A DNA stretch of 64,000 nt from IMG/VR virus record IMGVR_UViG_3300045988_151707, positions 46,036-110,035 of that record; one strand, 5' to 3'. This stretch comes from a virus. A model generated the notes under the pieces. It was not told the DNA's origin. It ran no database searches and saw nothing but the letters and a program-made list of their open reading frames with translations. Shown piece after piece: positions 1-56,627 of the stretch (the stretch's first letter is position 1; each line of letters begins with the position of its first letter). A program made the position numbers and the translations under genes.

Positions 1-741
1 CGGATTGTGCTGTATCAGGGTGTGAAGCAGGGAGAGTTTTTCTTCCTTATCGGGTTTATCGTAATACATATCGGCGTATTTCCGAAAGATGCGGTATGCT
101 GTTTCCTTGTCTATCGACATAAAGAAGCCTGATATATCCATTGTGGCCACAAAGGCTTTCTTTGTGTAACCGTCCGTTACATCACGAATATTCCGCTGTA
201 TCTGCTCGATGGCTGTAGATGCGGAATGCCCGATACGGTTGCCGTGGCTTACATCACCATTGGCTTCGTGGACTTTCTCGCATATCTCGCCAAGCATCGG
301 AGCGACGTAGTGGTGCACGATACGGTCGGTGTAGTTAGCTGCAAACACTTCTCTATATACAGGATAGTCGAGGACAAAACAGATGCTTGTCTGTGGCTGG
401 TAGCCGTTGTCTATTCTGTTTATCAATTCATAAATACGCGACAGGTTGAAATGAAACGATGCTGCTTCGAGCGATGCGTGCTTGTTTTTGTAACAGTCAC
501 TTTCGGCAGCTATCCAGGCGGGCACTTTTTCTGATAAATCGGAGGCCGGCACCACGCTATAGGTGTTGTTCGTGTTGTTGTTGTTCAAGTTGCCATTTCC
601 CATGTTCACATACCAGGCGTTGTTGCCATTGTTGCGGACACAGCTCCAGACGTTGCCGCCCAGGACTTCTGCCCTGTTAATCGAAATAGCTTGCTCACCG
701 CAAGCACAGGGACCTTTATCATTAAACAGTTCTGCCGACAT
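1..741 (-). CDS. DGR reverse transcriptase, N-terminal 247 codons (runs off window edge)
   Basis: Uninterrupted minus-strand frame from ATG 741-739 to position 1. It is absent from the supplied ORF track because it has no stop in the window. The translation ..FVLDYPVYREVFAANYTDRIVHHYV..FVATMDISGFFMSIDKE.. resembles the RT finger/palm motifs of Bordetella phage Brt (..SDFSKFFPSID..). The functional start is uncertain: ATG 741, a Met inside the TR, or GTG 525. Confidence 0.85.
   Translation of the reverse strand, partial: MSAELFNDKGPCACGEQAISINRAEVLGGNVWSCVRNNGNNAWYVNMGNGNLNNNNTNNTYSVVPASDLSEKVPAWIAAESDCYKNKHASLEAASFHFNLSRIYELINRIDNGYQPQTSICFVLDYPVYREVFAANYTDRIVHHYVAPMLGEICEKVHEANGDVSHGNRIGHSASTAIEQIQRNIRDVTDGYTKKAFVATMDISGFFMSIDKETAYRIFRKYADMYYDKPDKEEKLSLLHTLIQHNP
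541..666 (-). repeat. DGR template repeat (TR), 126 bp
   Basis: Aligns without gaps to 1185-1310. All 15 mismatches fall at plus-strand T (coding-strand A) of this copy. The coding strand is AAC-rich (..NNGNN..NLNNNNTNNT..). Confidence 0.92.
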
Positions 742-1175: not shown

Positions 1176-2594
1176 TCAAAAAGCGGAGGCCGGCACCACG
1201 CTACAGGTGCCGTACGCGTTGCCGTAGTACAAGGTGCCATTACCCATGTGCACATACCAGGCGTAGTTGCCACTGTAGCGGACACAGCTCCAGACGTTGC
1301 CGCCCAGGACGCCAGGTATGCCCCATTTTTCATAACTGTTAAGATAGTTTATCAATCCTGAAATTATGCTTTTGTTTGTCCAGTATGGATATAATTCTTT
1401 CTCTCCTGCCATATACTTCCCTTCAAGTGTTTTGATGTAATACACAGCATGAGAGTCCGCCATATTCCATTCGTAATTTGTACTGGAATTTCCCGGTCTG
1501 CTTATGTATGGGGTAATGATATACCAATAACCGTCAACGGTTATGGCTTCCGCTCCTTTTGCGCCCGGAGAAAGAAGAGGTCGTTCGGCGGAGTTTACTC
1601 CGGTGTCGTTCATGTTTACACCGTTTGTTTTCTGCTGTTCGTACAGCCATTCAGCGTATTCAGGTTTAAAATAATATGCGTTGTTTACTGAATACTTATT
1701 ATTTGTATTGTACATTGCTTTCAAACCTGTGTTCTGGCCGTTTACGAAGAAAAACATATCTTCACCTAACTGAGCCTGTACGCCTGATGAATTTAGGATT
1801 TCCACATCGGTTATTGTGCCTTCTGCTTCAGAAGATGTTATGCCGCTACAGATGGCAAACCTGTGGCGAAGCCATTCATTCTGTACATACATGGATTCAA
1901 GACGTTCGGCGTAATTATCCGCTATCATAGCATTTACATTACCGCAATTCTTTTCCATTATCCAGCGTTGCTTGGTATTACCGCTATAAAGTTCAAGCTT
2001 GTCGTCTTCCGTTACGGTTACGCTCCAGTCGGCTGCGAAGTGACTTCCTGCAGCATGGGTGCCAAGGTTCTCATCTATGGTTCCATGATAGTCTGTTCCT
2101 TCTCCTGTTCCGGTTCTCTGATCGTATTCATAAACGGAATGCTGCATTGCGTTTGATGCTTTGCTTGTAGTACCGGACGTGGCGTAATATTCTCCCTGCC
2201 ACGGCCAATACAATATCGTTCTTATCCCGTTGCACTCCAAAGAGAATCCTACCGGAGGAGCAATGAGTTCGTTGTCGAAGCCGTTGGCCACGCTGCGCTC
2301 GTTCCATTCTTTTACCGTGTAATGCTTCAGGTCTGCATCTACAATCTTGATATGGTCGTTTGTAGCTACGGCTTCCGTCTTGCCTTCTTTTGTTGTGATG
2401 GCAGTGGAGCGTACCGGCAGTATCAGCATTTGCGATTCAAAGGCGTATTCATCCCCTGTCGGAATGGCTGCTATTTTAGCCGGATATTCGGAAAGGATTT
2501 CTCCTACATTTTCTACACCCTTTGCTTCAATGGCTGCCTTTATGGCGGCTTTGCTTTCTTTTAACTTGTTTAGTTTGTCTGCTGTCGTTCCCAT
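1176..2594 (-). CDS. DGR target protein, fibre/receptor-binding-like, VR at C-terminus
   Basis: 472-aa ORF. The N-terminus MGTTADKLNKLKESKAAIKAAIEAKG is fibre-like. C-terminus ..LGGNVWSCVRYSGNYAWYVHMGNGTLYYGNAYGTCSVVPASAF is encoded by the VR. Confidence 0.88.
   Translation of the reverse strand: MGTTADKLNKLKESKAAIKAAIEAKGVENVGEILSEYPAKIAAIPTGDEYAFESQMLILPVRSTAITTKEGKTEAVATNDHIKIVDADLKHYTVKEWNERSVANGFDNELIAPPVGFSLECNGIRTILYWPWQGEYYATSGTTSKASNAMQHSVYEYDQRTGTGEGTDYHGTIDENLGTHAAGSHFAADWSVTVTEDDKLELYSGNTKQRWIMEKNCGNVNAMIADNYAERLESMYVQNEWLRHRFAICSGITSSEAEGTITDVEILNSSGVQAQLGEDMFFFVNGQNTGLKAMYNTNNKYSVNNAYYFKPEYAEWLYEQQKTNGVNMNDTGVNSAERPLLSPGAKGAEAITVDGYWYIITPYISRPGNSSTNYEWNMADSHAVYYIKTLEGKYMAGEKELYPYWTNKSIISGLINYLNSYEKWGIPGVLGGNVWSCVRYSGNYAWYVHMGNGTLYYGNAYGTCSVVPASAF
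1185..1310 (-). repeat. DGR variable repeat (VR), 126 bp
   Basis: Partner of the TR at 541-666. 111/126 identical, and every difference lies opposite a TR adenine. Ends 9 nt before the target gene stop codon. Confidence 0.92.
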
Positions 2595-2845
2595 TATATC
2601 ACCTCCCCGTTTATTTCATCAAGTACTGTGTTTATATCTCCTATAGCATTGCTTAAATCCTGAGAGGTGGCGTACCCTTTCTGCGCAAGAGTTTCTTCTG
2701 TTACATATCCTTCAGGAACTTGCTTTAAAGAAGAATTTACTCCATCAACGAGTTCGTCTATCTTCTTCGTTATAGCGTTCATTTCATCAGACTGCAACAC
2801 CTGCTCTCTGGTGAATGTTTTATTTAATTTCTGAATATCTGCCAT
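2594..2845 (-). CDS. hypothetical coiled-coil protein upstream of DGR target (fibre-associated)
   Basis: 83-aa ORF. Its TAATG stop/start overlaps the target gene. Confidence 0.6.
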   Translation of the reverse strand: MADIQKLNKTFTREQVLQSDEMNAITKKIDELVDGVNSSLKQVPEGYVTEETLAQKGYATSQDLSNAIGDINTVLDEINGEVI

Positions 2846-2851
2846 GGCATA

Positions 2852-2992
2852 TTATTTTAATTTGTTTACATCGAGCTTTCCTTTGTCGAGTACGAGGTAT
2901 TTTTCTTCAGGAGGAGATATATGCTTTTTCTTCTTAATCTCACAGAATCTATACGTCAAAAGCTTAAACGTATTTAGCTTAATAGGTTTCAT
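2852..2992 (-). CDS. small hypothetical protein (46 aa)
   Basis: Read manually: MKPIKLNTFKLL... It has an ATGA overlap with the upstream ORF stop. Below the track size cut-off. Confidence 0.3.
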   Translation of the reverse strand: MKPIKLNTFKLLTYRFCEIKKKKHISPPEEKYLVLDKGKLDVNKLK

Positions 2993-3270
2993 GATCCTGC
3001 CTCCCTTATGGTTGCTTTTGTAACTTTACTTGATACAACAATTTTAATATACTTAGGATAGACCGCATGACAAAAATCTGCATCTATTACGTCCCCCCAC
3101 TTTAGTTCAATATATGAACGCCTATACTTTCCTTCATCACTTCCCCTTTGATAAATCTCCAATGTTCCTCCACTCTCCATTTCGATATGAAGATTATAGT
3201 CTGAGTTTACTTTTGTTTCTGATACAAATGATTTGCCTTCCTCATTAAATAATAATTCTCTCTGTTCCAT
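2989..3270 (-). CDS. hypothetical protein
   Basis: Track ORF trimmed to ATG 3270 (MEQRELLF..). The track start at 3288 is a TTG inside the -7 promoter box. Confidence 0.55.
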   Translation of the reverse strand: MEQRELLFNEEGKSFVSETKVNSDYNLHIEMESGGTLEIYQRGSDEGKYRRSYIELKWGDVIDADFCHAVYPKYIKIVVSSKVTKATIREAGS

Positions 3271-9997: not shown

Positions 9998-10348
9998 CGA
10001 CGGTTTCTCGGAGGACAAAAACAAAAAAGGAGACAATCGCTTGTCTCCTTTCTGTGTGTGTTGATAAAACTCTCATCGAAGAAGGGAATCCCTGTTTTCC
10101 CTATCACGCCGCTAAATTACAAAAAATATTTATATCCGAATAAAACGGATATGTTTTTTTGACAATTGAATGCTTATTTGCACTTTAAAACAATAAAAAG
10201 GGGAATATACCTCTCTTGGAAATATCCCCCTTTATGCATCTAATAATTCATTAAGAATTATAGCTGCAAATATAGCTTTTTATTATGATTGACATCTTGT
10301 TTATGCTTAATTTTTAATATATTTATAGTGTATCTAATAATAATCATT

Positions 10349-11493
10349 ATGAATAAAATTAAGTATGAGCTTGTAACGCATCGTGTACACGGAGGAATGC
10401 TAGCTGTTTTTGTGAAATGTTCACAGTATGGTTCTGTAATAGAACTAGATACTAATGTCAGAGTGTTTAATGACGAATGGAGCAAAGAATTCGGACTTAT
10501 TTCTAAAAATCCAAATGCCGCTAATCTTAACCTGCTAATCAGAAAACTTGTGTATAACCTGGAAGAGATTGAACTAACTTATTCTGGAGAAATTACATTG
10601 TCTAAATTGCATGACATCTATTCAAAACGTGGAGCTTCTGCAGACTGGTATGTAATGTGGGAAAAATCCATGAATGAAAGAGGGTTAAAACCTCGTACTA
10701 TAGAAATACATGAAAATGTTTTGAAGACTATAAAAAAATTCAGAGATTCTTGTCCTGTCACATCATTGACAGAGGATTTCTTCCGCGGATTCATGGGATT
10801 TTTAATTAATTCCGGACTTAAATATTCAACCGTATGTAAGGAAATGCATGTTGTTAAGGCATATTATAATATCGCACGTAAATTGTATGGGAATAAGGTT
10901 CCATCGGATGCATTCGCTTTTTACCATGATCCAAAAGACCTGAACAATACTTATAAACTGAAGTCGTTAAGTGATGATGATATACGTAAGATTGAGAATT
11001 ATGTAGCATCTGGGACGTTATCAGAAAGTAAAAAGCTAACTATCAATCAATTCTTATTCATGAGCTATTCTGGAACTAGGATAAGTGATTTTGCTTCTCT
11101 CAACGAAAAAAACTTCAAGTTGGAAGATGGTCGGATTTGGCTTGAATATAATTCCGTAAAAACAAATACACATGTCAGAATACCTCTTTTTGCTCTGTTT
11201 GATGGAAGAGGTGAGCAAATATATAGCCAGTATCAGAATAGACTTTCAGAGTTTTTTATGTGGGGAACAATTGCAGGTTCAATTCAAGGTTGTCTTCCGC
11301 TCTTAAAGGAAGTGGCCTTAACAAGCATGTAACCGCTCACGTTGCAAGACATACTTGCGCAAGCAGATTAATTAATAGGAATGTTCCTATAACTACAATA
11401 CAGCAAGTAATCGGTCATAGACAAATAAAGACTACGATGATATATGCAAAGATTGACGACAATTCGTTTGTAAGACAATTGAAAGGATTATAA
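10349..11493 (+). pseudogene. tyrosine recombinase (integrase/invertase family) interrupted by a frameshift in a T6 tract
   Basis: Two track ORFs (10289-11332 and 11260-11493). The second carries ..HVTAHVARHTCASRL..GHRQIKTTMIYAKI (HxxR..Y catalytic region). Adding one T to the T-run at 11252-11257 fuses the two frames (..SEFFYVGNNCRFNSRL..). Confidence 0.8.
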
Positions 11494-11516
11494 AAAGCCT
11501 CTTTACGAGGCTTTTT
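11494..11516 (+). terminator. intrinsic terminator after recombinase
   Basis: aaagcctc-tttac-gaggcttt followed by a T-run. Confidence 0.7.
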
Positions 11517-11519
11517 ACA

Positions 11520-12034
11520 AGTTCTGGCGGAACTGATGGGTGGATTTATAAGGAGAAGCCCAGTTTCAGAATCTTTCGACTCCTGTATAAATCAGGGCGT
11601 TTATAATATCAATAAGACCACTTATCCATCCGCAGTAAACTATCCTCCAAGTATTGTCTATGGGCTTCTATTTGTATTCAGTTCATCGAATGGATGGGTT
11701 TCACAATTATCTCATAATTTGGAAAATAATACAATACACACAAGAATAAGAAATGAAAATGGTATTTGGAATGAGTGGAAACAGTTATAATTCTTTCCAT
11801 TCAGTCCATTCTCCATTACTTATTTTTGCCCTTTGATAAGTCGTTCCAGTAAATATCTCTACTAGTATCTGAAATGCACTTTGATCAGATTTCGCAGAAA
11901 GCAGAAAACCAAAATATCCATTTGTGTTTGTTGAGCCATTCTCTGCATAATAATATCCATCTTCAATGTTGTTCGCGTCAACCACTTTGCGTCCACGATA
12001 GGCGAAGGGGAATTGTATTAGTCCCGCCAGGACT
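11520..12034. other. candidate invertible DNA segment (knob-domain switch)
   Basis: Bounded by an imperfect 18-bp inverted repeat: agttctggcggaactgat (11520-11537) and the reverse complement of 12017-12034, agtcctggcgggactaat (15/18 identical). The segment contains two convergent knob-like coding cassettes. Confidence 0.5.
11521..11790 (+). CDS. promoterless alternative knob-domain cassette (silent in this orientation)
   Basis: The frame is open from 11494. It encodes VLAELMGGFIRR...NENGIWNEWKQL, which parallels the C-terminus of the convergent ORF (..ISNGEWTEWKEL). It sits directly after a terminator and has no promoter. Confidence 0.5.
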   Translation, partial: VLAELMGGFIRRSPVSESFDSCINQGVYNINKTTYPSAVNYPPSIVYGLLFVFSSSNGWVSQLSHNLENNTIHTRIRNENGIWNEWKQL

Positions 12035-12369
12035 GATGAAAACTGTTCTTTGCCAATATATATAGGATTCCCATTAGAGTCAATTCCTCTTATAAAAGGA
12101 ATATCTTCTGAAGGCTCATTCAATTTCTCTGATTTTGAAATTTCTCTAGATGCATCTCCTATACTGATTATTCCAGTTTCCATATCGCTCGGATTTGAAA
12201 CTATAAAATTTTTAGGAGAATTTATTTGTAAAAATGATGACATTAATTCAGAGATTACTTTTTTCATGGAATCTTTTGACATCTTTTGTACATCCCCATT
12301 ACTCTTTACACCAAGAAAATAATCAAAATCTTCAACGGATGTAACGTCTGATAATTTTTTATCTGCCAT
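11785..12369 (-). CDS. fibre-tip protein with C-terminal knob-like domain
   Basis: 194 aa. MADKKLSDVTSVEDFDYFLGV.. is a fibre-like N-terminus. The C-terminal 78 aa lie inside the invertible segment. Confidence 0.65.
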   Translation of the reverse strand: MADKKLSDVTSVEDFDYFLGVKSNGDVQKMSKDSMKKVISELMSSFLQINSPKNFIVSNPSDMETGIISIGDASREISKSEKLNEPSEDIPFIRGIDSNGNPIYIGKEQFSSVLAGLIQFPFAYRGRKVVDANNIEDGYYYAENGSTNTNGYFGFLLSAKSDQSAFQILVEIFTGTTYQRAKISNGEWTEWKEL

Positions 12370-12412: not shown

Positions 12413-12934
12413 TTAAACAGTTTCCTTATTATCCGGAAGAACCGGTCTGTAATAAATTACTTTTTCAGATTCATCAGGAGAAAGTGAAAGAAGCATAGGA
12501 TTCTGGTCTGGCATAGTATCCTCTGATAAAGTATGTGGAGTCACTACCTCAAGAAGCACATCATCAAAATTAAACTTAAAACCAGAAGGAGCTTCTGTGC
12601 CGATTACCTCATTAAAACTTGGATATAAACGCTTTAGTTCCAATGCCTGATTGTTTGTAAGGCTAATGTTATTAATATCTGATGATACTTTTCCCAATAA
12701 AGATACGAGCTTGTTAAGAAAATTATAATCCAGATTATCCGGATAGAACAGATTTCCTTCTTCAATCATAGAATCTTTTTCTGATTCTGGTATTTCTTTC
12801 CACAATGCCGCTTCTTCCATGGATGAAACAATCATTGATTTTTCAAAACGTCTTTCACTAATTGGAACTTCCTCACTCTGAGTAAGAAGACATCCGTTAC
12901 TTGCTTGTAGTATCATTTTTCCTTGCTTTTTCAA
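12413..12934 (-). CDS. hypothetical protein (fibre module)
   Basis: 173-aa ORF, AT-rich module. Confidence 0.55.
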   Translation of the reverse strand: MKKQGKMILQASNGCLLTQSEEVPISERRFEKSMIVSSMEEAALWKEIPESEKDSMIEEGNLFYPDNLDYNFLNKLVSLLGKVSSDINNISLTNNQALELKRLYPSFNEVIGTEAPSGFKFNFDDVLLEVVTPHTLSEDTMPDQNPMLLSLSPDESEKVIYYRPVLPDNKETV

Positions 12935-13184
12935 TCATGTTGTCAATAGCATCAATAAAACGTGGGTTCCCGAACCTGGAATATTCCTTAATCAGTTCCA
13001 CTTCTTTCTCATCATATTCTTCTTCACCATCTGAATTGTATATCTTACGGCACAATTCAAGCGAAGCAACTCCCCTGCCCGATGCGTAGATAGCATCGGC
13101 AAACATTTCTCTTACATCTTCCACTGCTTCCGTGACGCGTGAAAGACCGTTGAAAACGTGTAATTCCTTAAAATTCAGTTTCAT
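12897..13184 (-). CDS. hypothetical protein (fibre module)
   Basis: 95-aa ORF directly after the large fibre gene. Confidence 0.55.
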   Translation of the reverse strand: MKLNFKELHVFNGLSRVTEAVEDVREMFADAIYASGRGVASLELCRKIYNSDGEEEYDEKEVELIKEYSRFGNPRFIDAIDNMIEKARKNDTTSK

Positions 13185-13186
13185 TA

Positions 13187-16100
13187 TTATCCTATTTTAT
13201 AACAAATTCCATTTTTAAAATAAAGGGTTTTTGAATACCCGTTTGGGGGCACATATTCTGCGGTACCTGTAAATCCAGTAACTGAATTACCTCCTTCTGT
13301 CATTGATATTTGAGTAGGATTTATAATCATACTAGAATCTCCCATCTTTAATCTTATATCTCCGTTTGTTATCTGAGTGCTCTTGTCACCGCTGTTCATT
13401 CTTATGTCAAACGGGTATAGGTAAAGCGTTTCCCCTTCAATATTTTTCAATGATATTGCAGCTGATTCATATCCTGAATTGTCGTAGAAAAACCAGCTAG
13501 AAAGCACATTCCCTGTACTTGAAACTAAAGCCATTTGTCTTGAATCAGGGTCTAATATAATTCTGTTTCCATCTGAATTAGTAACAACACCTCCAGTGAA
13601 AGTACCTGTAGCAGATTTCAACTCACCGGAAAAAGATCCGCTCGTAGCTACGACTTCACCTTGTATATGTGCTTTTGTAGCATACATCTCACCAGATTCC
13701 GTCACACGGAAGGGAGCAGAAGCACGGTTCTCGTAAGTGCTTCCTGCAAAAATACGCACAAGGCTGCCTGAATTGCTTCCTGTCATACCTGCAGTAACAG
13801 TACCATCATCTTTCTGTATAAGCAGGTCGTTTCCCTGAAACAACTGTATTTTTGCATTCTTGGCTATAATCAGTGATGTAAAAATAGAACCTACATTCGC
13901 GCCAAACCTTTTCCAAAATTCAGTGTTTGCGTATGTAATGCTGCTGCTCGATACATGCGTTTTCAAACACTGGTATGCGTCCCATCCGGTTTCAACAGCA
14001 TTGTTTCTTACCAATACTACATCTATATAACGAACAGGAAGGCTTCCGTCTTTCACATCGCTGTCATTACGGTATTCCGTGTTCAATGCCCATTCAGAAT
14101 CGCGGATTACACATCCCTGAAGACCGTCTGCCCCTTTCTCGCCAAGCTGTGCAAATACAGCAGGAGTAGAGAATAACCCCCATTCTCCATCTGTTGATTT
14201 CCTTCTTTTAGAGACCCATTCGTATGGATAAGAAACAGAAATACCTGAAGGTGAGCGTGTCCATCCACTTGGTATGTAATCATCTATCTGTGCTGTTGTT
14301 GGAGTTGAAGGGGTTGAATTTATTGTTGTTCGTGTGTAAATTTCTTCAGTATAAGGTCCGTCTTCGCCTTTTTGAGCAATTATTTCGTATTCTAAAGAGT
14401 TTTGTTCTCCCGTTAGTATATATCCTCCATCTTCAAATATAAATCTATTCCCATCATTATCTGTCCAACACCATAAAGGAGGATTGTTAGTTGCATTTTT
14501 TGCAGAAAATGAAGAACCACACATTGTTACAACACCCATTTCAGGAACTTCCATGCCAGACTCCCACCTTCCAATATAAGTTAACCCAGCTCCATCTTCA
14601 CCCTTATCTACTTGTAGAAGCCAATCAGCATTTTCCTTGGAAGGTTCTGTATCTGTCCCGTCTTCTGCTACGCATAGCCACAATATACCATCATGGCTTA
14701 CACGGTCATAAAATTCATATTTTGTGCCACTTTCCCATTGACCTCTGTCATTTGCCACAAGAACCGGCGTTCCATCTGGTCTTACTTGATTTATTGTACC
14801 AGTAAAATACACAGAATTAAGGTACATGGAGTAACCAGACATGTTCAGCCCGAATATGTTCAAATTCGTCAGGTCGCCATACTGCATGGCAATATTCCCA
14901 ACCGTAAATTCCCAGTCATTCTGTTTCCAGAGAAGTCGGGTATATGATCGTGTTTCGTATGCGGAGCTTTGTCTTGCTTCATCAGTAAAGTTTCCGTAGC
15001 ATGAAAAACTCATCTGTGGCTGTGGATGAATAGTATATCCGGGACGAAGTGCATAACGGAATGTCTCATTATTATCTCCCGACACCTCCGTCACGCGAAA
15101 ATAGGTGGTTGCAAATCCGGAAAATTTGAAGTTACCTTTGCTGTCGTCAGAATCCTCGGTAGCATCCCTTTCATCGCCAAAATGGAAGATACCAAGTGCA
15201 ATGTCATCCTTAGATACCGCACCAAACTCTCCTTTTTCCAGCTTTAGTGTACAAGTTCCAGTTGTAAGCTGATTACCTTCCGAATCCGTATCAGGTGTGC
15301 ATGACAGAATAATTCCAGCACCAGGTACACGCCATTTAATCCCCAGGAAAATCTCTACACGGTTGTACCGGAGTTCAGGAACCTCCAGAAATTCCCACAA
15401 GCGAAGTCCGCGCATTTCTCCGTATCCTTTTTTATCTATCTTTGCGCCAAAACCGGTTAAACCTTCGGCAAAACCTTTCTCTCCCACCACAATTCCTGCC
15501 ATCATCGTAAGCAAGAATTTTGTGGAGTCTTCACGGTCTTTATTGATAAGGTATTGTCTGAGAAGGTCTAAATATTTTCCAGTAAGCAACTTGGTTGTGG
15601 GCACGGATTCGTCGCTTTGAAGGAATTCTCCCTCATCTCCCTGGCGTGCCACATCAGAAATCTGCTTGTCGTTGATAACCAGCTTGCCGATAATGGAAAG
15701 CGTGCCTTGAACTATGTAGGAAGTGAAGCGTTTCAGCGGACGGATAAGGTCATCGGCTGTCACTTCAAACAGTTCTTTCCATCCGGCTGTATCCTGCGTT
15801 TGTCCTTCAGGAGTAGAAAGCTTACCGTAGTCCAGTGTAATTTCACGGTCGAGGGTGGCAGCTTCCAGACTGTCGGTGGCGGTAATGCTTCCGATACGTA
15901 TGTAATAGAAATCTTCGCTGGGATTCTCTCCGCCGATGCTTCCGTCAGTAGCATAGTCGTTCACGGAAAACAGCACCATGGCATCGTCAGAACCACGTTC
16001 CAGACGGGCATAGATGTAGTGTGCCTCCGTGCGGTTCAGACGGGTGTTGTATCCCGTCAGCGTCCAGCTTCGGTATTCTCCGTTGGGCAGATAATCTATG

Positions 16101-16246
16101 CCGTAGCTTTTCTGCGGAGCCACCATGATGGTACAGCCCGGAACCACCCCCACCTGAATCAGGTTGGGGTTTTCCAGTGCATTTTCTATCATGGACACGC
16201 CCTGGTAAGAAATTCGGTATGCGTTACTCTGGTAATCGGTTATCAT
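13187..16246 (-). CDS. large tail fibre / host-specificity protein
   Basis: 1019 aa. Contains a CBM5/12-like segment ..QWESGTKYEFYDRVSHDGILWLCVAEDGTDTEPSKENADWL.. Confidence 0.7.
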   Translation of the reverse strand: MITDYQSNAYRISYQGVSMIENALENPNLIQVGVVPGCTIMVAPQKSYGIDYLPNGEYRSWTLTGYNTRLNRTEAHYIYARLERGSDDAMVLFSVNDYATDGSIGGENPSEDFYYIRIGSITATDSLEAATLDREITLDYGKLSTPEGQTQDTAGWKELFEVTADDLIRPLKRFTSYIVQGTLSIIGKLVINDKQISDVARQGDEGEFLQSDESVPTTKLLTGKYLDLLRQYLINKDREDSTKFLLTMMAGIVVGEKGFAEGLTGFGAKIDKKGYGEMRGLRLWEFLEVPELRYNRVEIFLGIKWRVPGAGIILSCTPDTDSEGNQLTTGTCTLKLEKGEFGAVSKDDIALGIFHFGDERDATEDSDDSKGNFKFSGFATTYFRVTEVSGDNNETFRYALRPGYTIHPQPQMSFSCYGNFTDEARQSSAYETRSYTRLLWKQNDWEFTVGNIAMQYGDLTNLNIFGLNMSGYSMYLNSVYFTGTINQVRPDGTPVLVANDRGQWESGTKYEFYDRVSHDGILWLCVAEDGTDTEPSKENADWLLQVDKGEDGAGLTYIGRWESGMEVPEMGVVTMCGSSFSAKNATNNPPLWCWTDNDGNRFIFEDGGYILTGEQNSLEYEIIAQKGEDGPYTEEIYTRTTINSTPSTPTTAQIDDYIPSGWTRSPSGISVSYPYEWVSKRRKSTDGEWGLFSTPAVFAQLGEKGADGLQGCVIRDSEWALNTEYRNDSDVKDGSLPVRYIDVVLVRNNAVETGWDAYQCLKTHVSSSSITYANTEFWKRFGANVGSIFTSLIIAKNAKIQLFQGNDLLIQKDDGTVTAGMTGSNSGSLVRIFAGSTYENRASAPFRVTESGEMYATKAHIQGEVVATSGSFSGELKSATGTFTGGVVTNSDGNRIILDPDSRQMALVSSTGNVLSSWFFYDNSGYESAAISLKNIEGETLYLYPFDIRMNSGDKSTQITNGDIRLKMGDSSMIINPTQISMTEGGNSVTGFTGTAEYVPPNGYSKTLYFKNGICYKIG

Positions 16247-29093: not shown

Positions 29094-29464
29094 CGCACCT
29101 CCCTTCACAGGGAAGCGCGGTAAACATAACACTGATAATGATTGTATCAAACAACATTACTTTGTGCGATTATCCTTCCATCTTCCTTCACAGGAAAATA
29201 GGACTTTGTGTAAGCTTAATTCTGTCAAAATAAAGAATAAAGTGCACACCACCGTGTGCAATAACATGGTTACTATTTTTCTCATGATGATGCAAATATA
29301 TCCTATTTCTCTGAATATCAAAAAGAAAAAGGATGAAGAACCACTGTTCCCCATCCAGGTGTAATAAAACAAAGAACATTTTCATGCTCAATTCTTTGCA
29401 AATATAATGTTTTTACCGCACATAAGCAAACTTTGAAACTAATTGATTATCTGATTTATAATAA

Positions 29465-29855
29465 ATACTTTTATTCAAACATACTTTTATTCTTTTATAT
29501 AAAAATACTTTTACTCTTTTATTATTTCATACTTTTATATTTTCATTCAGTTGTATTAAAACATTATTATTCTTTTGCATATCTGTATATTTGAATGTAA
29601 ATACTTTTACTCTTTCATACTTTTATACTTTTATGTTTTTATACTTTTACTCAATTATTCTTTTATACGTTCATACTTCTATGATTTTGTACTAAAATAT
29701 CTTTCCATCACCCATTTTGTATTTTCACACAAAAGTATGTTTATATAAAAATACTTTTGTGTTTTTACGTTTCTATGCTTTTATTCATTTATACTATTAT
29801 TATTTTATGTATCCGCACAAAAATGCTTTTATATTTTTATTCAAAAATACTTTTA
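29465..29855. repeat. ATACTTTTA 9-mer repeat field upstream of parA (centromere-like or iteron site)
   Basis: At least 10 direct copies: 29465, 29481, 29505, 29529, 29601, 29617, 29625, 29641, 29751, 29847. One 12-bp perfect palindrome: acacaaaagtat-N12-atacttttgtgt (29727-29762). Degenerate copies at 29673, 29774 and 29823. Confidence 0.75.
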
Positions 29856-29967
29856 TGCGTTTGCACATTTGAATATTTACATTTTTGCATAAAAATATTT
29901 CTGTATTTATGGAGGAAATGAAAAAAAACGACTATCTTTGCAGTGTAATAAAACAAAAACATTTGAT

Positions 29968-33081: not shown

Positions 33082-34545
33082 ATGCGACGGAAGAAAAGCA
33101 CCACCGAATCAAGCAACTCACTGATTAAAGAGCTTAGCTCAGTAGAGTTTATTAAACAACCCTATCTGTATGCCATGGTAGGGGCAGATTTTTCACTCTA
33201 CCAGCGAAGTATTATGATAGAAATCATGAAGTCCATGCAAGACCGCTTCAATGAATTTCTGAAAAACAGACGTGCAGACGGACAAATGTCACTTTTCCCT
33301 GATGATCTGGACGACAATCAGATTCTCACATTCCGAATCAGCGCTTCCTCTCTTGGAGTAAGTCCTCGTGACTATATGTATCTTAGTGAGGCATGCGATA
33401 ATCTGATGAAGATGAACTGTTCTTTTTACAGATATGATGAAGTGGGAAGACCTATTCGTACATACGCACATCTGTTTTCTACGATTGAAATGCCGATGAT
33501 TCCGGTTTCAGGCTCGAAAGAAAAAGAAAGGAGGATGAACTACGTGGAAGCGCGTATGGATGCAAAGGTCTTGAAAGAACTGTGCGATTTAGGTAACGGG
33601 AAAGGTTATCTTGACCACATTTACCGAATAGCCCGTATCTGCAAACGCAAACGTACACCAAGCATTTATATTTATCTTTCCAGATGGAAAGACTTCCCAA
33701 AGAAATCGGTGGAATATGTGGAGCTCAAGAAATTCCTGGGAGTGATAACATTGGAAAATGTGGAGGTGAACGGGGTAGTTACTAAGACTTACGAAAAAGA
33801 CCGATACCCGAAATTCAGTAAATTTTGTAAGGAAGTGATGGACCCGATACGTGAAGACCTCGACCGTATGGCCAGCGAAAATCAGGTGGACTTTACTTTT
33901 GATTATGAACCTGTATATAAGGGTTCAACGAAGAGAGGAAACCCTGACGAGATATTATTTAAAATCAAGCTGAGTGAACTTGGGGAGGAAATGTCGCGTA
34001 AACGAAGACAGCAAAAACTTCCCGCAGATATTTGGGACTTGCTTCGCTCTGAATATAAACTGACGGAAACAGATGTGCGTATGCTGACCGATATGCTTCC
34101 TGACGAACTGATGAACGATTTCCGGGCCGAAGTGCTGGCACTTCGTGACCGAATGAACCGGTATAAGGTAAACAATCCGAAAAGTTATGTGGTGACTTCA
34201 CTCAAGAATTTTATTATCCAGCACACTCCGGAGGCAAAAGAAACAAAAGAAGATAATAGGGTAGAGGAGAAGAAAACCGTCAAGCATAAAACAATAAGCG
34301 AAGAAGATAAAAGCCGATGGATGGCATTTATGGAACTTCTTCAAGGTTCTGTAAGTCCGGTTGAATTTAGCACCTGGCTGTCGTCGCTTGAATTTGTTTC
34401 GCTTAATGGTGAGGAAGTGACACTATCTGTACCGGCTGCATACGTAGCGACTTATATTGACGAAAAGCTGAGTGCACCATTTAAACAAGCGCTTAATGCA
34501 GTGTATGGCGAAGATGTAAAACTACTTTATGAAGTAAGAAAATAA
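33082..34545 (+). CDS. plasmid-type replication initiator with DnaA domain-I-like C-terminus
   Basis: The N-terminal region is Rep-initiator-like (..FIKQPYLYAMVGADFSLYQRSIMIEIM..). The C-terminal ..WMAFMELLQGSVSPVEFSTWLSSLEFVSLNGEEVTLSVPAAYVATYIDEKL.. matches the DnaA N-terminal domain pattern. Confidence 0.6.
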   Translation: MRRKKSTTESSNSLIKELSSVEFIKQPYLYAMVGADFSLYQRSIMIEIMKSMQDRFNEFLKNRRADGQMSLFPDDLDDNQILTFRISASSLGVSPRDYMYLSEACDNLMKMNCSFYRYDEVGRPIRTYAHLFSTIEMPMIPVSGSKEKERRMNYVEARMDAKVLKELCDLGNGKGYLDHIYRIARICKRKRTPSIYIYLSRWKDFPKKSVEYVELKKFLGVITLENVEVNGVVTKTYEKDRYPKFSKFCKEVMDPIREDLDRMASENQVDFTFDYEPVYKGSTKRGNPDEILFKIKLSELGEEMSRKRRQQKLPADIWDLLRSEYKLTETDVRMLTDMLPDELMNDFRAEVLALRDRMNRYKVNNPKSYVVTSLKNFIIQHTPEAKETKEDNRVEEKKTVKHKTISEEDKSRWMAFMELLQGSVSPVEFSTWLSSLEFVSLNGEEVTLSVPAAYVATYIDEKLSAPFKQALNAVYGEDVKLLYEVRK

Positions 34546-47310: not shown

Positions 47311-47397
47311 GTATTTCAGGTTTTACAAAGGGCTCCGCACGGATGCGGAACCCTGAATTTACAAATACCTTTTATCACCCAACATGTCATTGTATGA

Positions 47398-47468
47398 CAT
47401 GGCAAATGTAACAATTTTCAACCGAAATCGCATTAAAATTGTTGCTAAATTTCATAAAACCTCCGATT
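47398..47468 (-). promoter_or_regulatory. ~70-bp promoter-operator module, copy b
   Basis: catggcaaatgtaacaattttcaaccgaaatcgcattaaaattgttgctaaatttcataaaacctccgatt. The minus strand gives a TAcaTTTG -7 box. Confidence 0.55.
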
Positions 47469-50610: not shown

Positions 50611-51010
50611 AATCCACTCCTTTCTCCAGCGTCATGCCGGGAATGTAATACATTCCGCAGGTGTTCAGTTTTTCGAGTGCCGTCTGTATGCTCTTCTGTG
50701 AATTGTTCACGTAGTTCACCAGATATGCTTTCTTCCCGTTGTACATAGCAGGAATGAATACCGGCATTACCTGGTTCCACGGCAGCACACCTCGCGGCAC
50801 ATTACGCATCAGGCAGTCGTCTGTGGGAATTTCCTCGGCATCCTTTGGCAGATGTTCAAGAAAAATGTGTGAGTCGCCTTCCTCGGCGAGCGTAGTAATA
50901 AGGGGATTTTGCAGTTTAGAAAACAGAGCTTTGTTAAGCTCTCTGCGTCGTTGGTTAGTATAGATCATTTGCCCTGCTTTAATGGTTAATTCATTGTTTT
51001 TCTTTCGCAT
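50603..51010 (-). CDS. hypothetical protein
   Basis: Trimmed to MRKKNNELT. The ATG abuts the -7 box, so the true start may be the downstream Met. Confidence 0.5.
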   Translation of the reverse strand: MRKKNNELTIKAGQMIYTNQRRRELNKALFSKLQNPLITTLAEEGDSHIFLEHLPKDAEEIPTDDCLMRNVPRGVLPWNQVMPVFIPAMYNGKKAYLVNYVNNSQKSIQTALEKLNTCGMYYIPGMTLEKGVDYE

Positions 51011-51078
51011 GGCAAATGTAACAATTTTAAACAAGAATCGCATTAAAATTGTACCTAAAATTCAAAAAACCACCGATT
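51008..51078 (-). promoter_or_regulatory. ~70-bp promoter-operator module, copy c
   Basis: catggcaaatgtaacaattttaaacaagaatcgcattaaaattgtacctaaaattcaaaaaaccaccgatt. About 85% identical to copy b. Confidence 0.55.
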
Positions 51079-51110: not shown

Positions 51111-52361
51111 CTACTCACGCCTAAAGGCATGAGCTTCGGAGATACCAATACCTCCTCTCTTTTCCTGCTTCTTCCTATCATTGCTTTTTAGGACACGAGG
51201 TCGGTCATCCACAAGAGGACAGTCCACAGGCTTGACTTTCCCACGCTCCGTGGGTAGGGCTTTCAAGCCAAATTCCTTGATGTTGCAAGCGGCATTGAAG
51301 TCCCGGTCGTGATGTGTACCACATTCCGGGCATGTCCAACTGCGCTCGCTAAGATTCAATTCTTTGTACACATAGCCGCATTTGCCGCAGGTCTTCGAAC
51401 TTGGGGCAAAGCGGTCTATCTTAATGAGGTTCACGCCATACCAACTGCACTTGTATTCAAGCAAAGTTAGGAACATACCGAAAGAAGCATCTCCTACGGC
51501 TTGTGCCAAATGGTGGTTACGCTGCATACCTTTCACGTTCAAATCTTCCATGCAGATAGTGCGCACTTGGCTGTCGTGCGTGAGTGCATGGGTGATTTTG
51601 TGAAGGCTGTCCTTACGGCTGTTAGCTATGTGTTCCTGTAGCCGGGCTACACGGATGCGTGCCTTGTTGCGGTTGGCAGAACCTTTCTGTTTGCGGCTCA
51701 ACCGCTTTTGTAGCAACTTCAAGCGGTCTAAGCTTCTCTGCAAGTTCTTAGGATTGTCAAACGTGCGTCCGTCAGAACATACGGCAAGCGACTTGATACC
51801 TAAATCAATACCTAAAGCCGTATCTCCCTGTATCGCTGAAGCCGGAAGTTCCTGGATGGTCGTATCAACCAACACGGAAGCAAAGTATCTACCCGAAGGT
51901 GTCATGCTGACGGTAACGGTCTTCACGGTACCTTTGAACCTGCGGTGCAGCACGGCAGGAATGTCTTTCGCCTTGGGGATTGTGATTGTTCCTTTCACAA
52001 AGTCCACGTTGCAATGCTGCGGACACTGGAAACTCTGCTTGCTTTTCCGGCTCTTGAATTTCGGAAAACCGACCGCATGAGTGTCACGGAAGAAGTTTTT
52101 GTAGGCGGTATCAAGGTTGCGGATGGAATTCAGGAGGGCTTGTGAATTTACCTCTGTCAGCCATTGGTTTTCCTTCTTCAGTTCGTTCACCATCCGGTCT
52201 TGAACTTCCTTGTAAGCTACAGACTTCTTATCCTGCTTGTAGGCTTCAATCTTCAGGTTGAGTGCCCAGTTATAGACAAAGCGGCAGCAGCCGAAGGTCT
52301 TGGCAAATAAGACCTTCTGTTCTTCTGTCGGATAGATTCTATATTTGTAGGCTCTCAGCAT
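51111..52361 (-). CDS. tnpB: TnpB (OrfB) RuvC-like RNA-guided nuclease family
   Basis: MLRAYKYRIYPTEEQKVLFAKTFGCCRFVYNWAL..GIDLGIK..CGKCG..CPECGTHHDRDFNAACNI. Confidence 0.9.
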   Translation of the reverse strand: MLRAYKYRIYPTEEQKVLFAKTFGCCRFVYNWALNLKIEAYKQDKKSVAYKEVQDRMVNELKKENQWLTEVNSQALLNSIRNLDTAYKNFFRDTHAVGFPKFKSRKSKQSFQCPQHCNVDFVKGTITIPKAKDIPAVLHRRFKGTVKTVTVSMTPSGRYFASVLVDTTIQELPASAIQGDTALGIDLGIKSLAVCSDGRTFDNPKNLQRSLDRLKLLQKRLSRKQKGSANRNKARIRVARLQEHIANSRKDSLHKITHALTHDSQVRTICMEDLNVKGMQRNHHLAQAVGDASFGMFLTLLEYKCSWYGVNLIKIDRFAPSSKTCGKCGYVYKELNLSERSWTCPECGTHHDRDFNAACNIKEFGLKALPTERGKVKPVDCPLVDDRPRVLKSNDRKKQEKRGGIGISEAHAFRRE

Positions 52362-55664: not shown

Positions 55665-55925
55665 TTATTTGCAAGCTTTCATCTTTCTAAACTTACCTTC
55701 ATAATCAGCATTTACATGTCCTGATTGATAAAGGGTTATATTCCTACTTCTTCGATACATTTTATATTCTCCCCACCAATATGCGTTATATTTCTTACGC
55801 ATATACTTGAGAAGATTTATAACTTCGTCTGGCTTTTCCATTGAATATTCAAACCATTCTGAAATGCCACCTTTCCCATCATTATTAAATACAACTACTA
55901 ATAGACCTGATTTTTGATTTCTCAT
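55665..55925 (-). CDS. hypothetical protein (cassette gene)
   Basis: 86-aa ORF. Confidence 0.55.
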   Translation of the reverse strand: MRNQKSGLLVVVFNNDGKGGISEWFEYSMEKPDEVINLLKYMRKKYNAYWWGEYKMYRRSRNITLYQSGHVNADYEGKFRKMKACK

Positions 55926-55994
55926 AATTCTTTATTTTAAGTTAGGCAATGTAACCGGATGGAGTATCACTTTCCATCCGGATATTCTGTTAAT
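55926..55994 (-). repeat. intergenic unit U7
   Basis: Box GTTAGGC at 55941-55947. Stem ccggatgga/tccatccgg, loop gtatcac. Confidence 0.75.
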
Positions 55995-56312: not shown

Positions 56313-56376
56313 AATTCCATTATTTTTAGTTAGACAATGTAGACAGATAGAGTATTAATCTCCATCCGTCTATGAA
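56313..56376 (-). repeat. intergenic unit U8
   Basis: Box GTTAGAC at 56329-56335, followed by a stem-loop. Confidence 0.75.
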
Positions 56377-56562: not shown

Positions 56563-56627
56563 AATTCCAATAATTTTAGTTAGACAATAGCACCGGAGGG
56601 AGCCTCACTCTCCCATCCGGCATGTGA
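56563..56627 (-). repeat. intergenic unit U9
   Basis: Box GTTAGAC at 56579-56585. Stem ccggagggag/ctcccatccgg. Confidence 0.75.

What the first reader, a model, noticed from the sequence alone, without database searches (positions are those of the whole stretch)
11494..12369. Candidate invertible host-range switch: two back-to-back knob domains bounded by an in-frame inverted repeat next to a tyrosine recombinase
The 194-aa fibre-tip gene (minus strand) ends ..ISNGEWTEWKEL. A promoterless plus-strand frame (open 11494-11790, directly after a terminator) ends ..NENGIWNEWKQL. The rest of each ~80-aa knob-like domain is comparable. The two stops form the palindrome TTATAA (11785-11790). The outer boundaries carry an 18-bp inverted repeat with 15/18 identity (11520-11537 and 12017-12034). 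It encodes V-L-A-(E/G)-L in the same codon phase in both cassettes. Inversion of ~515 bp would therefore swap the C-terminal knob in frame. The adjacent gene is a tyrosine recombinase. This resembles the Gin/Cin/Min fibre switches and the R64 shufflon, but uses a tyrosine recombinase, and it sits in an element that also has a DGR on a different fibre gene. The 10.0-13.2 kb module is visibly more AT-rich than its flanks.
Basis: partly seen in the sequence, partly recalled or inferred. Interest (0 to 1): 0.78.

Follow-up and report, generated by a model that had tools for sequence, protein, structure and literature searches.

The report
Invertible tail-fibre tip switch (phage shufflon)
This gut phage can swap the tip domain of a small tail-fibre protein by flipping a 500-bp DNA segment; such switches are already known in phages, and in this copy the flipping enzyme gene is broken, so the switch is probably stuck.

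Summary
The interpretation, an in-frame invertible knob switch driven by a tyrosine recombinase, is borne out by related sequences. Two 15-bp sites, AGTY-CTGGCGG-RACT (11520-11534 + and 12020-12034 -), are unique in the window. They bracket two tail-to-tail cassettes: Q, expressed as the C-terminus of the 194-aa gene, and M, silent.

A close relative (L029) carries exactly the predicted inverted form. M is fused in frame, Q is silent, the segment is 96% identical in reverse complement, and the flanks are 97% identical in direct orientation. Other relatives hold 2-5 cassettes in shuffled orders and orientations. About 20 cassette types are fused to the same 112-aa N-terminus, and many contigs break exactly at the sites.

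Both knobs are predicted to have the R-pyocin / Mu tail-fibre knob fold. The locus is a minimal two-cassette member of a shufflon family of Bacteroidales phages. That family includes the BV01-like Phocaeicola shufflon described in a 2026 preprint, and it is analogous to Rin of Bifidobacterium prophages and to R64 Rci/sfx.

In this window the recombinase carries a -1 frameshift (T6 instead of T7). The same broken allele occurs in 8 contigs, and all 7 where the fibre gene is visible are Q-ON. The switch is therefore probably locked here. Verdict: real, a new member of a known kind.

The parts
12034..12369 (-). Constant N-terminal part (aa 1-112) of the fibre-tip gene (whole gene 11785-12369). 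It ends ..EQFSSV at the proximal site.
   Evidence: ORF. The same 112-aa N-terminus is fused to about 20 different C-termini in homologues.
12020..12034 (-). Proximal (expression) recombination site AGTC-CTGGCGG-GACT, with its core at 12024-12030. It encodes V-L-A-G-L in frame.
   Evidence: The breakpoint of collinearity with L029 falls inside it.
11785..12033 (-). Cassette Q, the expressed knob domain (VLAGLIQFPFAYRGRK...EWTEWKEL, 82 aa plus stop).
   Evidence: AF2 pLDDT is 88-91 for residues ~130-194. Foldseek matches the pyocin R2, Mu and phi812 fibre knobs.
11521..11790 (+). Cassette M, the silent knob domain (VLAELMGGFIRRSPV...IWNEWKQL, 89 aa plus stop). It has no promoter and follows a terminator hairpin directly.
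   Evidence: M is expressed as an in-frame fusion in L029/P0010, L030/P0008, L025 and L026. Its fold is given.
11520..11534 (+). Distal recombination site AGTT-CTGGCGG-AACT, with its core at 11524-11530.
11524..12030 (.). Invertible segment, measured core to core (500 bp centre to centre). It holds the two cassettes tail to tail, with stop codons abutting as TTATAA at 11785-11790.
   Evidence: It is 96% identical to the reverse complement of the L029 segment and 31% identical in direct orientation. It is 94-96% identical to the Q-M segment of the second phage lineage, while the flanks there are unrelated.
11484..11526 (+). Hairpin (A5-GCCUC-loop-GAGGC-U5) that terminates the recombinase gene and insulates the silent cassette.
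   Evidence: -17.3 kcal/mol, z = -6.3; I25.
10289..11493 (+). Tyrosine recombinase gene, frameshifted here. The N-terminal ORF is 10289/10349-11332 and the catalytic C-terminal ORF is 11260-11493.
   Evidence: Pfam and PHROG integrase hits are split over the two ORFs. The intact 401-aa orthologue is in L017.
11252..11257 (+). T6 run, the site of the -1 frameshift. Intact relatives have T7 and one relative has T8.
   Evidence: The identical truncated 327-aa product occurs in 8 contigs.
12413..16246 (-). Upstream tail module in the same orientation: a 1019-aa tail-fibre-like protein (13187-16246), a 95-aa protein (12897-13184) and a 173-aa protein (12413-12934).
   Evidence: PHROG tail fibre / host-specificity hits. 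The gene order is conserved in all lineage-1 relatives.

Best explanation
The locus is a minimal, two-cassette shufflon. A small tail-fibre tip protein has a constant 112-aa N-terminus that ends in a short helix (..SVLA(E/G)L). The DNA for that helix is a 15-bp recombination site, AGTY-CTGGCGG-RACT. An inverted copy of the site lies 500 bp away, next to a tyrosine recombinase gene.

The recombinase pairs the two sites, exchanges strands within the invariant asymmetric 7-bp core CTGGCGG, and flips the segment. After a flip the promoterless cassette M replaces cassette Q as the C-terminal knob, still in frame (194 aa becomes 201 aa). Both knobs have the pyocin/Mu fibre-knob fold. The switch therefore presumably changes which surface receptor the virion binds; this last step is inferred.

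Relatives carry up to five cassettes in invertible tail-to-tail pairs, so the system is a true multiple-inversion shufflon drawing on a shared cassette pool.

In this particular genome the recombinase gene has lost one T from a T7 run. It is split into two frames, so the switch is most likely frozen in the Q-ON state unless a recombinase is supplied in trans.
For: Shown by the sequences:
- The sites are unique and inverted and lie in frame in both cassettes.
- The exact inverted form exists in L029. The segment is 96% identical in reverse complement against 31% direct, the flanks are 97% identical in direct orientation, and the recombinase there is intact with T7.
- L004 and L009 have flanks 98.7% and 99.9% identical, and their 632-bp segment is 100% identical in reverse complement.
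- L020 [Q M' D E'] and L024 [E D' M Q'] differ by inversion of the whole array.
- Relatives carry 2-5 cassettes in permuted orders.
- The 4 nt to the left of the core (AGTY, AGCA or CTGC) reassort relative to the cassettes, while the core never varies. This places the crossover in or at the core.
- 10 of the 24 IMG/VR contigs found with the fibre protein end within 90 nt of a site. Three contigs of about 103-108 kb have both ends at shufflon sites. This is the signature of mixed arrangements within a sample.
- About 20 C-terminal types are fused to one N-terminus. M and Q each occur both as fusions and as stand-alone silent ORFs in many contigs.
- The knob fold is supported, and NCBI names the lineage-2 homologue P0040 a 'pyocin knob domain-containing protein'.

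For the locked state:
- T6 replaces T7.
- The identical truncated product occurs in 8 contigs built by different assembly pipelines.
- All 7 contigs with a visible fibre gene are Q-ON.
Against: - No read-level data were available, so inversion within one population is inferred from contig breaks and comparisons between contigs, not observed.
- Recombinase activity on these sites is untested.
- The 7-8 contigs with the T6 allele may be one clonal strain. Their uniform orientation is then weak evidence that inversion depends on the recombinase.
- The N-terminal 125 residues are poorly modelled (pLDDT below 50), and the protein matches no Pfam or NCBIfam family and no solved structure by sequence. 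Its place in the virion rests on gene neighbourhood and the knob fold alone.
- The Foldseek E-values are modest (2e-3 to 6e-2), although the probability is about 1.0.
- Some relatives (L025, L026) have cassettes but no adjacent recombinase.
Confidence: 0.88

Rival explanations
1. The arrangements are fixed differences between strains, created by occasional modular exchange (horizontal transfer or homologous recombination at the short conserved linker). They are not a programmed, reversible inversion.
For: The evidence here is between contigs, not within a clone. The Q-M segment has clearly moved between two phage lineages, with breakpoints at the sites. Some relatives lack an adjacent recombinase. 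The window strain shows one orientation in 7 contigs.
Against: - A 100% identical segment sits in opposite orientation in near-identical genomes.
- Contigs break systematically at the sites, including three near-complete genomes broken only there.
- The asymmetric 7-bp core is invariant and the left arms reassort.
- A tyrosine recombinase is adjacent in two lineages and in BS-TP2, P. vulgatus and Prevotella relatives.
- 15 bp is too short for efficient RecA-dependent inversion.
- The homologous BV01-like shufflon was reported to show every configuration in read data (PMC13596623).
Confidence: 0.07
2. The plus-strand frame is an independent small gene (84 aa from the ATG at 11536), for example a fibre assembly factor, and not a silent exchange cassette.
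For: An ATG follows the site directly. Gene callers annotate 84-aa stand-alone ORFs of this cassette in more than 75 contigs.
Against: - It is preceded directly by a strong terminator hairpin, and the scan found no consensus promoter in the 43 nt between the recombinase stop and the ATG at 11536.
- Many cassettes start with ATT or other non-start codons at that position.
- The same sequence is fused in frame to the constant N-terminus in 201-aa and 181-aa proteins of two lineages.
- It is homologous to, and folds like, the expressed knob.
Confidence: 0.03
3. The switch in this window is still active despite the frameshift. Either low-level slippage at the T run restores the frame, or a related recombinase from the host or a co-resident phage acts in trans.
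For: - Both sites and the silent cassette are intact.
- Two recombinases only 29% identical are associated with the same site sequence, so trans action by relatives is plausible.
- Independent T6 and T8 alleles exist at the same run.
Against: All 7 contigs carrying this allele with a visible fibre gene are Q-ON. A run of 6 T is short for efficient slippage. No M-ON contig with the T6 allele was found.
Confidence: 0.15

Closest known systems
Tail-fibre shufflon of BV01-like Phocaeicola vulgatus phages (Res Sq preprint, Sept 2026, PMC13596623)
   Same: - Both are multi-cassette inversion systems at the 3' end of a tail-fibre gene, flanked by a recombinase, in Bacteroidaceae phages.
- The directional motif TGGGAGAACT matches 8 of 10 positions of the site here (TGGCGGAACT).
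- In P. vulgatus ATCC 8482 (L059) the site TTCTGGGAGAACTGATGAA heads a cassette LLGELMNSLKLFPFM.., which resembles the N cassette of this family (ALAELMNGNNLFPFM..).
- It lies next to a recombinase 69% identical, over residues 1-198, to the lineage-2 recombinase.
   Different: - The core differs at two positions.
- The window's recombinase is only 29% identical to the lineage-2 (BS-TP2/BV01-like) type.
- The host element is an uncultured phage of about 110 kb with no nucleotide match in INPHARED.
- The target is a 194-aa protein with pyocin-knob cassettes.
- This copy has two cassettes and a broken recombinase.
Rin shufflon of Bifidobacterium prophages (Mavrich et al. 2018, PMC6109161)
   Same: A phage-encoded tyrosine recombinase sits next to a receptor-binding protein gene with a constant N-terminal part and several invertible C-terminal cassettes. 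The cassettes are separated by short asymmetric crossover sites.
   Different: The crossover site is unrelated (rix, TTCCCTAACCC), the host phylum differs (Actinobacteria), the RBP type is unrelated, and recombinase orthology was not established here.
R64 / IncI plasmid shufflon (Rci recombinase, sfx sites, PilV adhesin)
   Same: - Both use a tyrosine recombinase for multiple inversions that swap the C-terminal segments of an adhesin, with cassettes arranged tail to tail.
- The site architecture is the same: variable left arm, invariant 7-bp core, conserved right arm (PMC11852207).
   Different: R64 is a plasmid pilus system, not a phage fibre. The recombinase here is a Bacteroidota-type integrase (Arm-DNA-bind_5, SAM_5 and catalytic domains). 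No Rci-specific match was found, and the site sequences are unrelated.
Gin (Mu), Cin (P1), Pin (e14) and Min (p15B) tail-fibre inversion systems
   Same: Inversion swaps the C-terminal, receptor-binding part of a phage tail fibre. The knob modelled here superposes on the Mu tail-fibre structure 8ju3.
   Different: Those systems use serine invertases with a Fis-dependent enhancer and 26-bp gix/cix sites, and they also switch a downstream assembly-chaperone gene. Here the enzyme is a tyrosine recombinase, the sites are 15 bp, and no chaperone gene lies in the segment.

Membership tests
Shufflon / programmed gene-altering inversion system (functional class) | Two or more short sites in inverted orientation that bound the 3' alternative segments of one gene, in frame | tested here: met
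   Sites at 11520-11534(+) and 12020-12034(-), both encoding VLA(E/G)L in the cassette frame.
Shufflon / programmed gene-altering inversion system (functional class) | Both orientations (or several permutations) occur in otherwise identical genomes | tested here: met
   Window versus L029; L004 versus L009; L020 versus L024 and the permuted 3-5 cassette arrays. Heterogeneity within a sample is inferred only from contig breaks.
Shufflon / programmed gene-altering inversion system (functional class) | A dedicated site-specific recombinase encoded next to the invertible region | tested here: inconclusive
   A tyrosine recombinase gene is adjacent and intact in about 20 relatives. In this window it is frameshifted (T6). 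Its activity on the sites is untested.
R64-type shufflon (Rci/sfx) | Asymmetric site: variable left arm, conserved 7-bp core and conserved right arm | tested here: met
   The core CTGGCGG and the right arm RACTKATKGG are conserved in 49 unique sites, while the left arm is AGTY, AGCA or CTGC. The sites counted were selected on CTGGCGG[AG]ACT, so invariance of those positions there is by construction; the looser search required only CTG[GA]CGG and found one CTGACGG cassette site. Conservation of the right arm may also reflect coding constraint.
R64-type shufflon (Rci/sfx) | Recombinase is an Rci orthologue with the extra C-terminal domain | tested here: not met
   The only NCBIfam hits are generic Xer, integron and FimB/E-type models, all below their cut-offs. 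The domain layout is that of a Bacteroidota integrase. The locus works like the R64 shufflon but is not a member.
Gin/Cin/Pin/Min invertible tail-fibre segments | Serine (resolvase/invertase family) recombinase | tested here: not met
   The adjacent enzyme has Phage_integrase (tyrosine) catalytic motifs, HxxR...Y.
Bacteroidales phage tail-fibre shufflon (BV01-like) | Directional motif TGGGAGAACT-like heading each cassette | tested here: met
   The motif is TGGCGG(A/G)ACT here (8 of 10). Variants: CTGGAAGAACT in phage BS-TP2, GTGGGAGGACT in B. mediterraneensis (L055), TGTGGCGGGACT in a Prevotella MAG (L058), and the BV01 motif itself in P. vulgatus (L059).
Bacteroidales phage tail-fibre shufflon (BV01-like) | Homologous recombinase adjacent to the array | tested here: inconclusive
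   The lineage-2 recombinase is 72% identical to BS-TP2 gp3 and 69% identical to the P. vulgatus copy. The window-type recombinase is homologous over its full length but only 29-30% identical.
Rin shufflon (Bifidobacterium prophages) | rix crossover site TTCCCTAACCC | tested here: not met
   The site here is AGTYCTGGCGGRACT, compared with the rix sequence given in PMC6109161.
Pyocin / Mu-type tail-fibre knob domain | Compact C-terminal beta-sandwich knob that superposes on solved fibre knobs | tested here: met
   Both the Q and M models hit 6cl6, 6cl5, 6ct8, 8ju3 and 9euf, with probability 0.97-1.0; the ~72-79-column knob-only alignments (6ct8, 8ju3, and 9euf_5 for Q) have rmsd 2.6-3.3 A. The knobs have pLDDT of about 70-91.
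Pyocin / Mu-type tail-fibre knob domain | Sequence-level match to a curated knob family | tested here: not met
   No Pfam, NCBIfam or PDB sequence hit for the window protein. Only NCBI's name for the lineage-2 homologue P0040 points this way.

The most novel reading that the evidence does not exclude
The shufflon sites may serve not only for inversion within one genome but also as docking points for cassette exchange between different phages.

The 500-bp Q-M segment is 94-96% identical between two phage lineages. The DNA just outside both sites aligns at only 49-61%, and the two recombinases are 29% identical. The same site consensus, with small variations, recurs in Bacteroides, Phocaeicola and Prevotella (pro)phages.

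This would make a community-wide, shared pool of receptor-binding knobs. Phages would trade them by site-specific double crossover in trans, analogous to recombinase-mediated cassette exchange or to integron cassettes. Recurrent frameshifts in the recombinase's T7 run (T6 and T8 alleles) would freeze favourable states.
Probability: 0.3. Interest if true: 0.62.

Novelty: new member of a known kind. Interest (0 to 1): 0.45.

Why it matters
Bacteroidales vary their capsules and surface proteins by phase variation, and a phage that can shuffle its receptor-binding knob is the matching counter-move. This locus adds three things to what is known:

- The site is well defined: a 7-bp core plus a conserved right arm.
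- The cassette catalogue is large, with about 20 knob types on one scaffold.
- The same cassettes circulate between unrelated phage backbones.

The locus also offers a natural 'locked' allele (T6 recombinase, Q-ON) beside switching relatives, and it points to a cultured phage (BS-TP2) that carries an unannotated relative of the system. These features are useful for host-range prediction, for interpreting fragmented viral assemblies, and for engineering Bacteroides phages with swappable tips. The finding does not reveal a new principle.

Tried and rejected
- Megablast of the module and of 50 kb of the window against INPHARED phages gave no relatives, apart from two ~130-180-bp matches to unannotated 'Bacteriophage sp.' records from human faeces. 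tblastn of the lineage-2 protein P0040 against phages gave none.
- The fibre-tip protein has no relative in the GTDB representative genomes, so lineage 1 could not be assigned to a host directly. The only genomic relative of its recombinase is a truncated remnant in a Bacteroides sp. MAG, with no shufflon (L027).
- Pfam, PHROG and NCBIfam gave nothing for the fibre-tip protein or its small neighbours. A profile search of PDB sequences gave nothing.
- The simple terminator scan missed the hairpin at 11484-11526, but folding confirmed it.
- I considered that the T-run differences might be homopolymer sequencing errors and rejected this. The identical truncated product appears in 8 contigs from ENA and Logan assemblies.
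- I considered that the T run is a phase-variable tract. The census (about 20 contigs with T7, one with T8, one strain with T6) fits ordinary hotspot mutation better.
- I considered the silent frame as a stand-alone gene and rejected it (see rival explanations).
- The end of contig L035, 31 nt past a 3-SNP cluster, is a k-mer bubble and not evidence of inversion.
Full report
**1. What is in the window**

The minus-strand ORF 11785-12369 encodes a 194-aa protein ending ISNGEWTEWKEL. On the plus strand a frame stays open from the stop of the neighbouring recombinase gene to 11790 and ends NENGIWNEWKQL. The two stop codons abut as TTATAA (11785-11790).

The longest inverted repeat in 10.0-13.3 kb has arms at 11512-11537 and 12017-12042 (26 nt, 77%). 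Its core, AGTYCTGGCGGRACT, occurs exactly twice in the 64-kb window, in inverted orientation. None was expected in 100 shuffles. Read in the cassette frame, both copies encode V-L-A-(E/G)-L.

A strong hairpin (11484-11526, -17.3 kcal/mol, z = -6.3) separates the recombinase stop from the distal site. The plus-strand cassette therefore has no promoter of its own. The 10-13 kb module is AT-rich, with GC 0.33-0.36.

**2. The recombinase**

Pfam and PHROGs identify a Bacteroidota-type tyrosine recombinase, with Phage_int_SAM_5, Phage_integrase and a weak Arm-DNA-bind_5 match. The matches are split over two ORFs in different frames, 10289-11332 and 11260-11493.

Intact orthologues of 401 aa read ..NRLSEFFYVGSNCRFNS.. 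across a T7 run (L017). The window has T6 at 11252-11257, and one relative has T8.

The truncated 327-aa product is found with identical sequence in 8 contigs from two assembly sources, so the frameshift is a real allele and not a sequencing error. The window is identical to ENA ERZ28657847 scaffold_145 (109,934 bp; L028, 0 mismatches in 10,585 nt).

**3. Relatives show the predicted inversion**

A search of IMG/VR with the 194-aa protein returned 24 loci. All loci were oriented alike and each site-headed frame was translated. This shows one constant N-terminus of 112 aa followed by different C-termini, with further site-headed cassettes downstream, 2 to 5 per locus, mostly in tail-to-tail pairs.

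- **Exact inverted form.** L029 (ENA ERZ28638722, 79.8 kb; protein P0010, 201 aa) is the inverted form of the window's locus, with M fused in frame and Q silent, at the same coordinates. The 515-bp segment is 96% identical to the reverse complement of the window's and 31% identical in direct orientation. The flanks are 97% identical in direct orientation, and the recombinase is intact with T7.
- **A second pair.** L004 and L009 have flanks 98.7% and 99.9% identical and a 632-bp segment that is 100% identical in reverse complement.
- **Whole-array inversion.** L020 [Q M' D E'] and L024 [E D' M Q'] differ by inversion of a whole four-cassette array.
- **Cassette census.** The protein database holds about 20 C-terminal types on the same N-terminus. 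Both M and Q occur as fusions and as silent stand-alone ORFs in many contigs.

**4. Evidence for site-specific exchange and for mixed populations**

In the 49 unique sites tabulated (selected on CTGGCGG[AG]ACT), the right arm beyond that motif..KATKGG, is well conserved. The looser search required only CTG[GA]CGG; among the cassette sites it found CTGGCGG every time except one CTGACGG. The four bases to the left are AGTY at the outer sites and AGCA or CTGC at the internal head-to-head junctions.

A given cassette is found behind different left arms. N occurs with AGCA or CTGC; T with CTGC, AGTC or AGTT; I with AGTT, AGCA or AGTC. This is what exchange within the core predicts.

The architecture is a variable left arm, a 7-bp core and a conserved right arm, as described for R64 sfx sites (PMC11852207).

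Ten of the 24 IMG/VR contigs end within 90 nt of a site. Three contigs of about 103-108 kb have both ends at shufflon sites (L011/L043, L014/L046, L018/L042). These are essentially complete genomes that assembled everywhere except across the shufflon. That pattern indicates several arrangements within the sequenced populations. This step is an inference, because no reads could be examined.

**5. What the cassettes encode**

Pairwise BLASTP aligns only the last 19 residues of Q and M. The multiple alignment, however, shows shared motifs (G.Y ... G.L..F ... Q ... Y.R ... W..WK.L).

AlphaFold models place the site-encoded residues in a short helix (107-117). A confidently modelled beta-sandwich knob follows, with pLDDT 88-91 for Q and 67-90 for M. 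The N-terminal 125 residues are poorly modelled.

Foldseek against the PDB returns the same set for both models: R1/R2 pyocin fibre knobs (6cl5, 6cl6, 6ct8), the Mu tail fibre (8ju3) and a phi812 baseplate fibre (9euf). Probabilities are 0.97-1.0 and E-values 2e-3 to 0.3; the ~72-79-column knob-only alignments (6ct8, 8ju3, and 9euf_5 for Q) have rmsd 2.6-3.3 A. NCBI names a lineage-2 homologue a 'pyocin knob domain-containing protein'.

The gene follows a 1019-aa protein with tail-fibre / host-specificity PHROG hits and precedes the lysis genes. The protein is therefore most likely a fibre-tip adhesin. A host-range consequence is inferred, not shown.

**6. Mechanism and state of this copy**

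The best-supported mechanism has four steps:
1. The adjacent tyrosine recombinase synapses the two inverted sites.
2. It exchanges strands in or at the asymmetric CTGGCGG core.
3. This inverts the 500-bp segment.
4. The single promoter and constant N-terminus are then joined in frame to the other knob.

Multi-cassette relatives reach further cassettes by successive inversions.

In the window's strain the recombinase is a pseudogene (T6). All 7 contigs that carry this allele with a visible fibre gene are Q-ON. Relatives with T7 are found in both orientations. I conclude the switch is intact in cis but probably locked here. The contigs may represent one clone, and trans-complementation cannot be excluded (about 15%).

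**7. Wider family and comparison with known systems**

A second phage lineage has a different N-terminus (MAEEDFVLSF.., about 174 aa) and a recombinase only 29% identical. It nevertheless uses the same site and shares cassettes Q and M.

The Q-M segment is 94-96% identical between the lineages, while the DNA outside both sites aligns at 49-61%. The segment has therefore moved horizontally, with breakpoints at the sites.

The lineage-2 recombinase has the following relatives:

| Identity to lineage-2 recombinase | Where found | Site there |
|---|---|---|
| 92-96% | Phocaeicola sp. and Bacteroides mediterraneensis genomes (L055 is the B. mediterraneensis type strain) | GTGGGAGGACT in L055 |
| 72% | Cultured Bacteroides phage BS-TP2; array unannotated in the record | CTGGAAGAACTGAT |
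| 69% (residues 1-198) | P. vulgatus ATCC 8482 | TTCTGGGAGAACTGATGAA |
| 54% | Prevotella MAG (L058) | TGTGGCGGGACTTATG, three copies |

The P. vulgatus site is the motif reported for the BV01-like tail-fibre shufflon (PMC13596623).

Phage shufflons driven by tyrosine recombinases were first reported as Rin in Bifidobacterium prophages (PMC6109161). Gene-altering inversions in tail fibres are a recognised class (PMC9881135). The contrast with the serine invertases Gin, Cin and Min is correct.

**8. Verdict**

The finding is real and correctly interpreted. It is a new member of a known kind: a two-cassette, apparently locked representative of a Bacteroidales phage shufflon family, in an uncultured gut phage of about 110 kb that also carries a DGR (TR 536-666, VR 1180-1310; all 16 mismatches fall at template adenines on the coding strand).

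The most novel reading still open is that the sites also mediate cassette exchange between phages, creating a shared pool of knobs.

Noticed in passing
window 536-666 and 1180-1310: DGR template and variable repeats (131 nt, 88% identical). All 16 differences fall at T on the + strand of the template, which is A on the coding strand of the minus-strand target gene 1176-2594. The variable repeat lies at the 3' end of that 472-aa gene, which has no Pfam or PHROG match. The reverse transcriptase was not located.
   Followed up: partly
window 11252-11257; L015/L039; about 20 other lineage-1 loci: The recombinase T run is T7 in intact genes, T6 in the window strain and T8 in IMG/VR contig 3300045988_160321. 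These are two independent frameshifts, in opposite directions, at one homopolymer. This is most simply a mutational hotspot, but a second-tier on/off control of shuffling is not excluded.
   Followed up: partly
window 11524-12030 versus L020 4135-4649 and L022: The whole Q-M invertible segment is 94-96% identical between two phage lineages. Their sequences just outside both sites align at only 49-61%, and their recombinases are 29% identical. The segment has been transferred horizontally, bounded exactly by the recombination sites.
   Followed up: partly
L032/L033 (Bacteroides phage BS-TP2, PQ571275: about 56772 and about 575-585; recombinase gp3 at 1708-3000): A cultured phage carries an unannotated relative of this shufflon: inverted CTGGAAGAACTGAT sites and knob-like silent cassettes ending ..GGWGTWKTV and ..GTWTDWKQI. 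It lies between the tail genes and a recombinase 72% identical to the lineage-2 enzyme. This is a possible experimental model.
   Followed up: partly
L025 8254-8585; L026 6851-7137: Some lineage-2 relatives keep the cassettes and sites but have no recombinase gene between the array and the holin gene. Their outermost site is flanked by TACCCATAAGT, which looks like an inverted right arm (a cassette stub).
   Followed up: no
L035 (Logan SRR35139744), corresponding to window 11535-11538: This contig is identical to the window over 4.2 kb except for three substitutions directly after the core (AACTGATGGG changed to AACTTAATGG; LMGG becomes LNGG). The contig ends 31 nt later. The same variant right arm occurs in L029 and L022. 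This may be heteroduplex repair or gene conversion at the edge of the exchange region.
   Followed up: no
window 51111-52361 (-), with 84-nt repeats at 47385-47468 and 50995-51078: A TnpB / IS605 OrfB-like gene (Cas12f1-like TNB, OrfB_IS605 and HTH domains) lies inside the phage genome. An 82%-identical 84-nt direct repeat occurs twice, with the second copy (50995-51078) ending ~33 nt beyond the gene's 3' end and the first (47385-47468) ~3.6 kb beyond it.
   Followed up: no
window 29462-29882: A cluster of degenerate direct repeats in the most AT-rich stretch of the window (GC 0.27). It lies about 3 kb upstream of a protein with a DnaA N-terminal domain (33082-34545). This could be an iteron-type replication origin.
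   Followed up: no
window 55914-55975, 56302-56363, 56552-56613, 59687-59748: Four copies of a 62-nt element (..CATAATTCC.TTATTTTTAGTTAGACAATG..) are repeated in a run of short minus-strand genes. It is probably a repeated promoter or regulatory element.
   Followed up: no
L058 (Prevotella sp. MAG) 2161, 3089, 3528; L055 (B. mediterraneensis Marseille-P2644T) 2445, 3200: Related site variants (TGTGGCGGGACTTATGCC three times; GTGGGAGGACTACT twice) lie upstream of recombinases 54% and 92% identical to the lineage-2 enzyme. The shufflon family therefore extends across Bacteroidales genera, with a drifting core sequence.
   Followed up: partly
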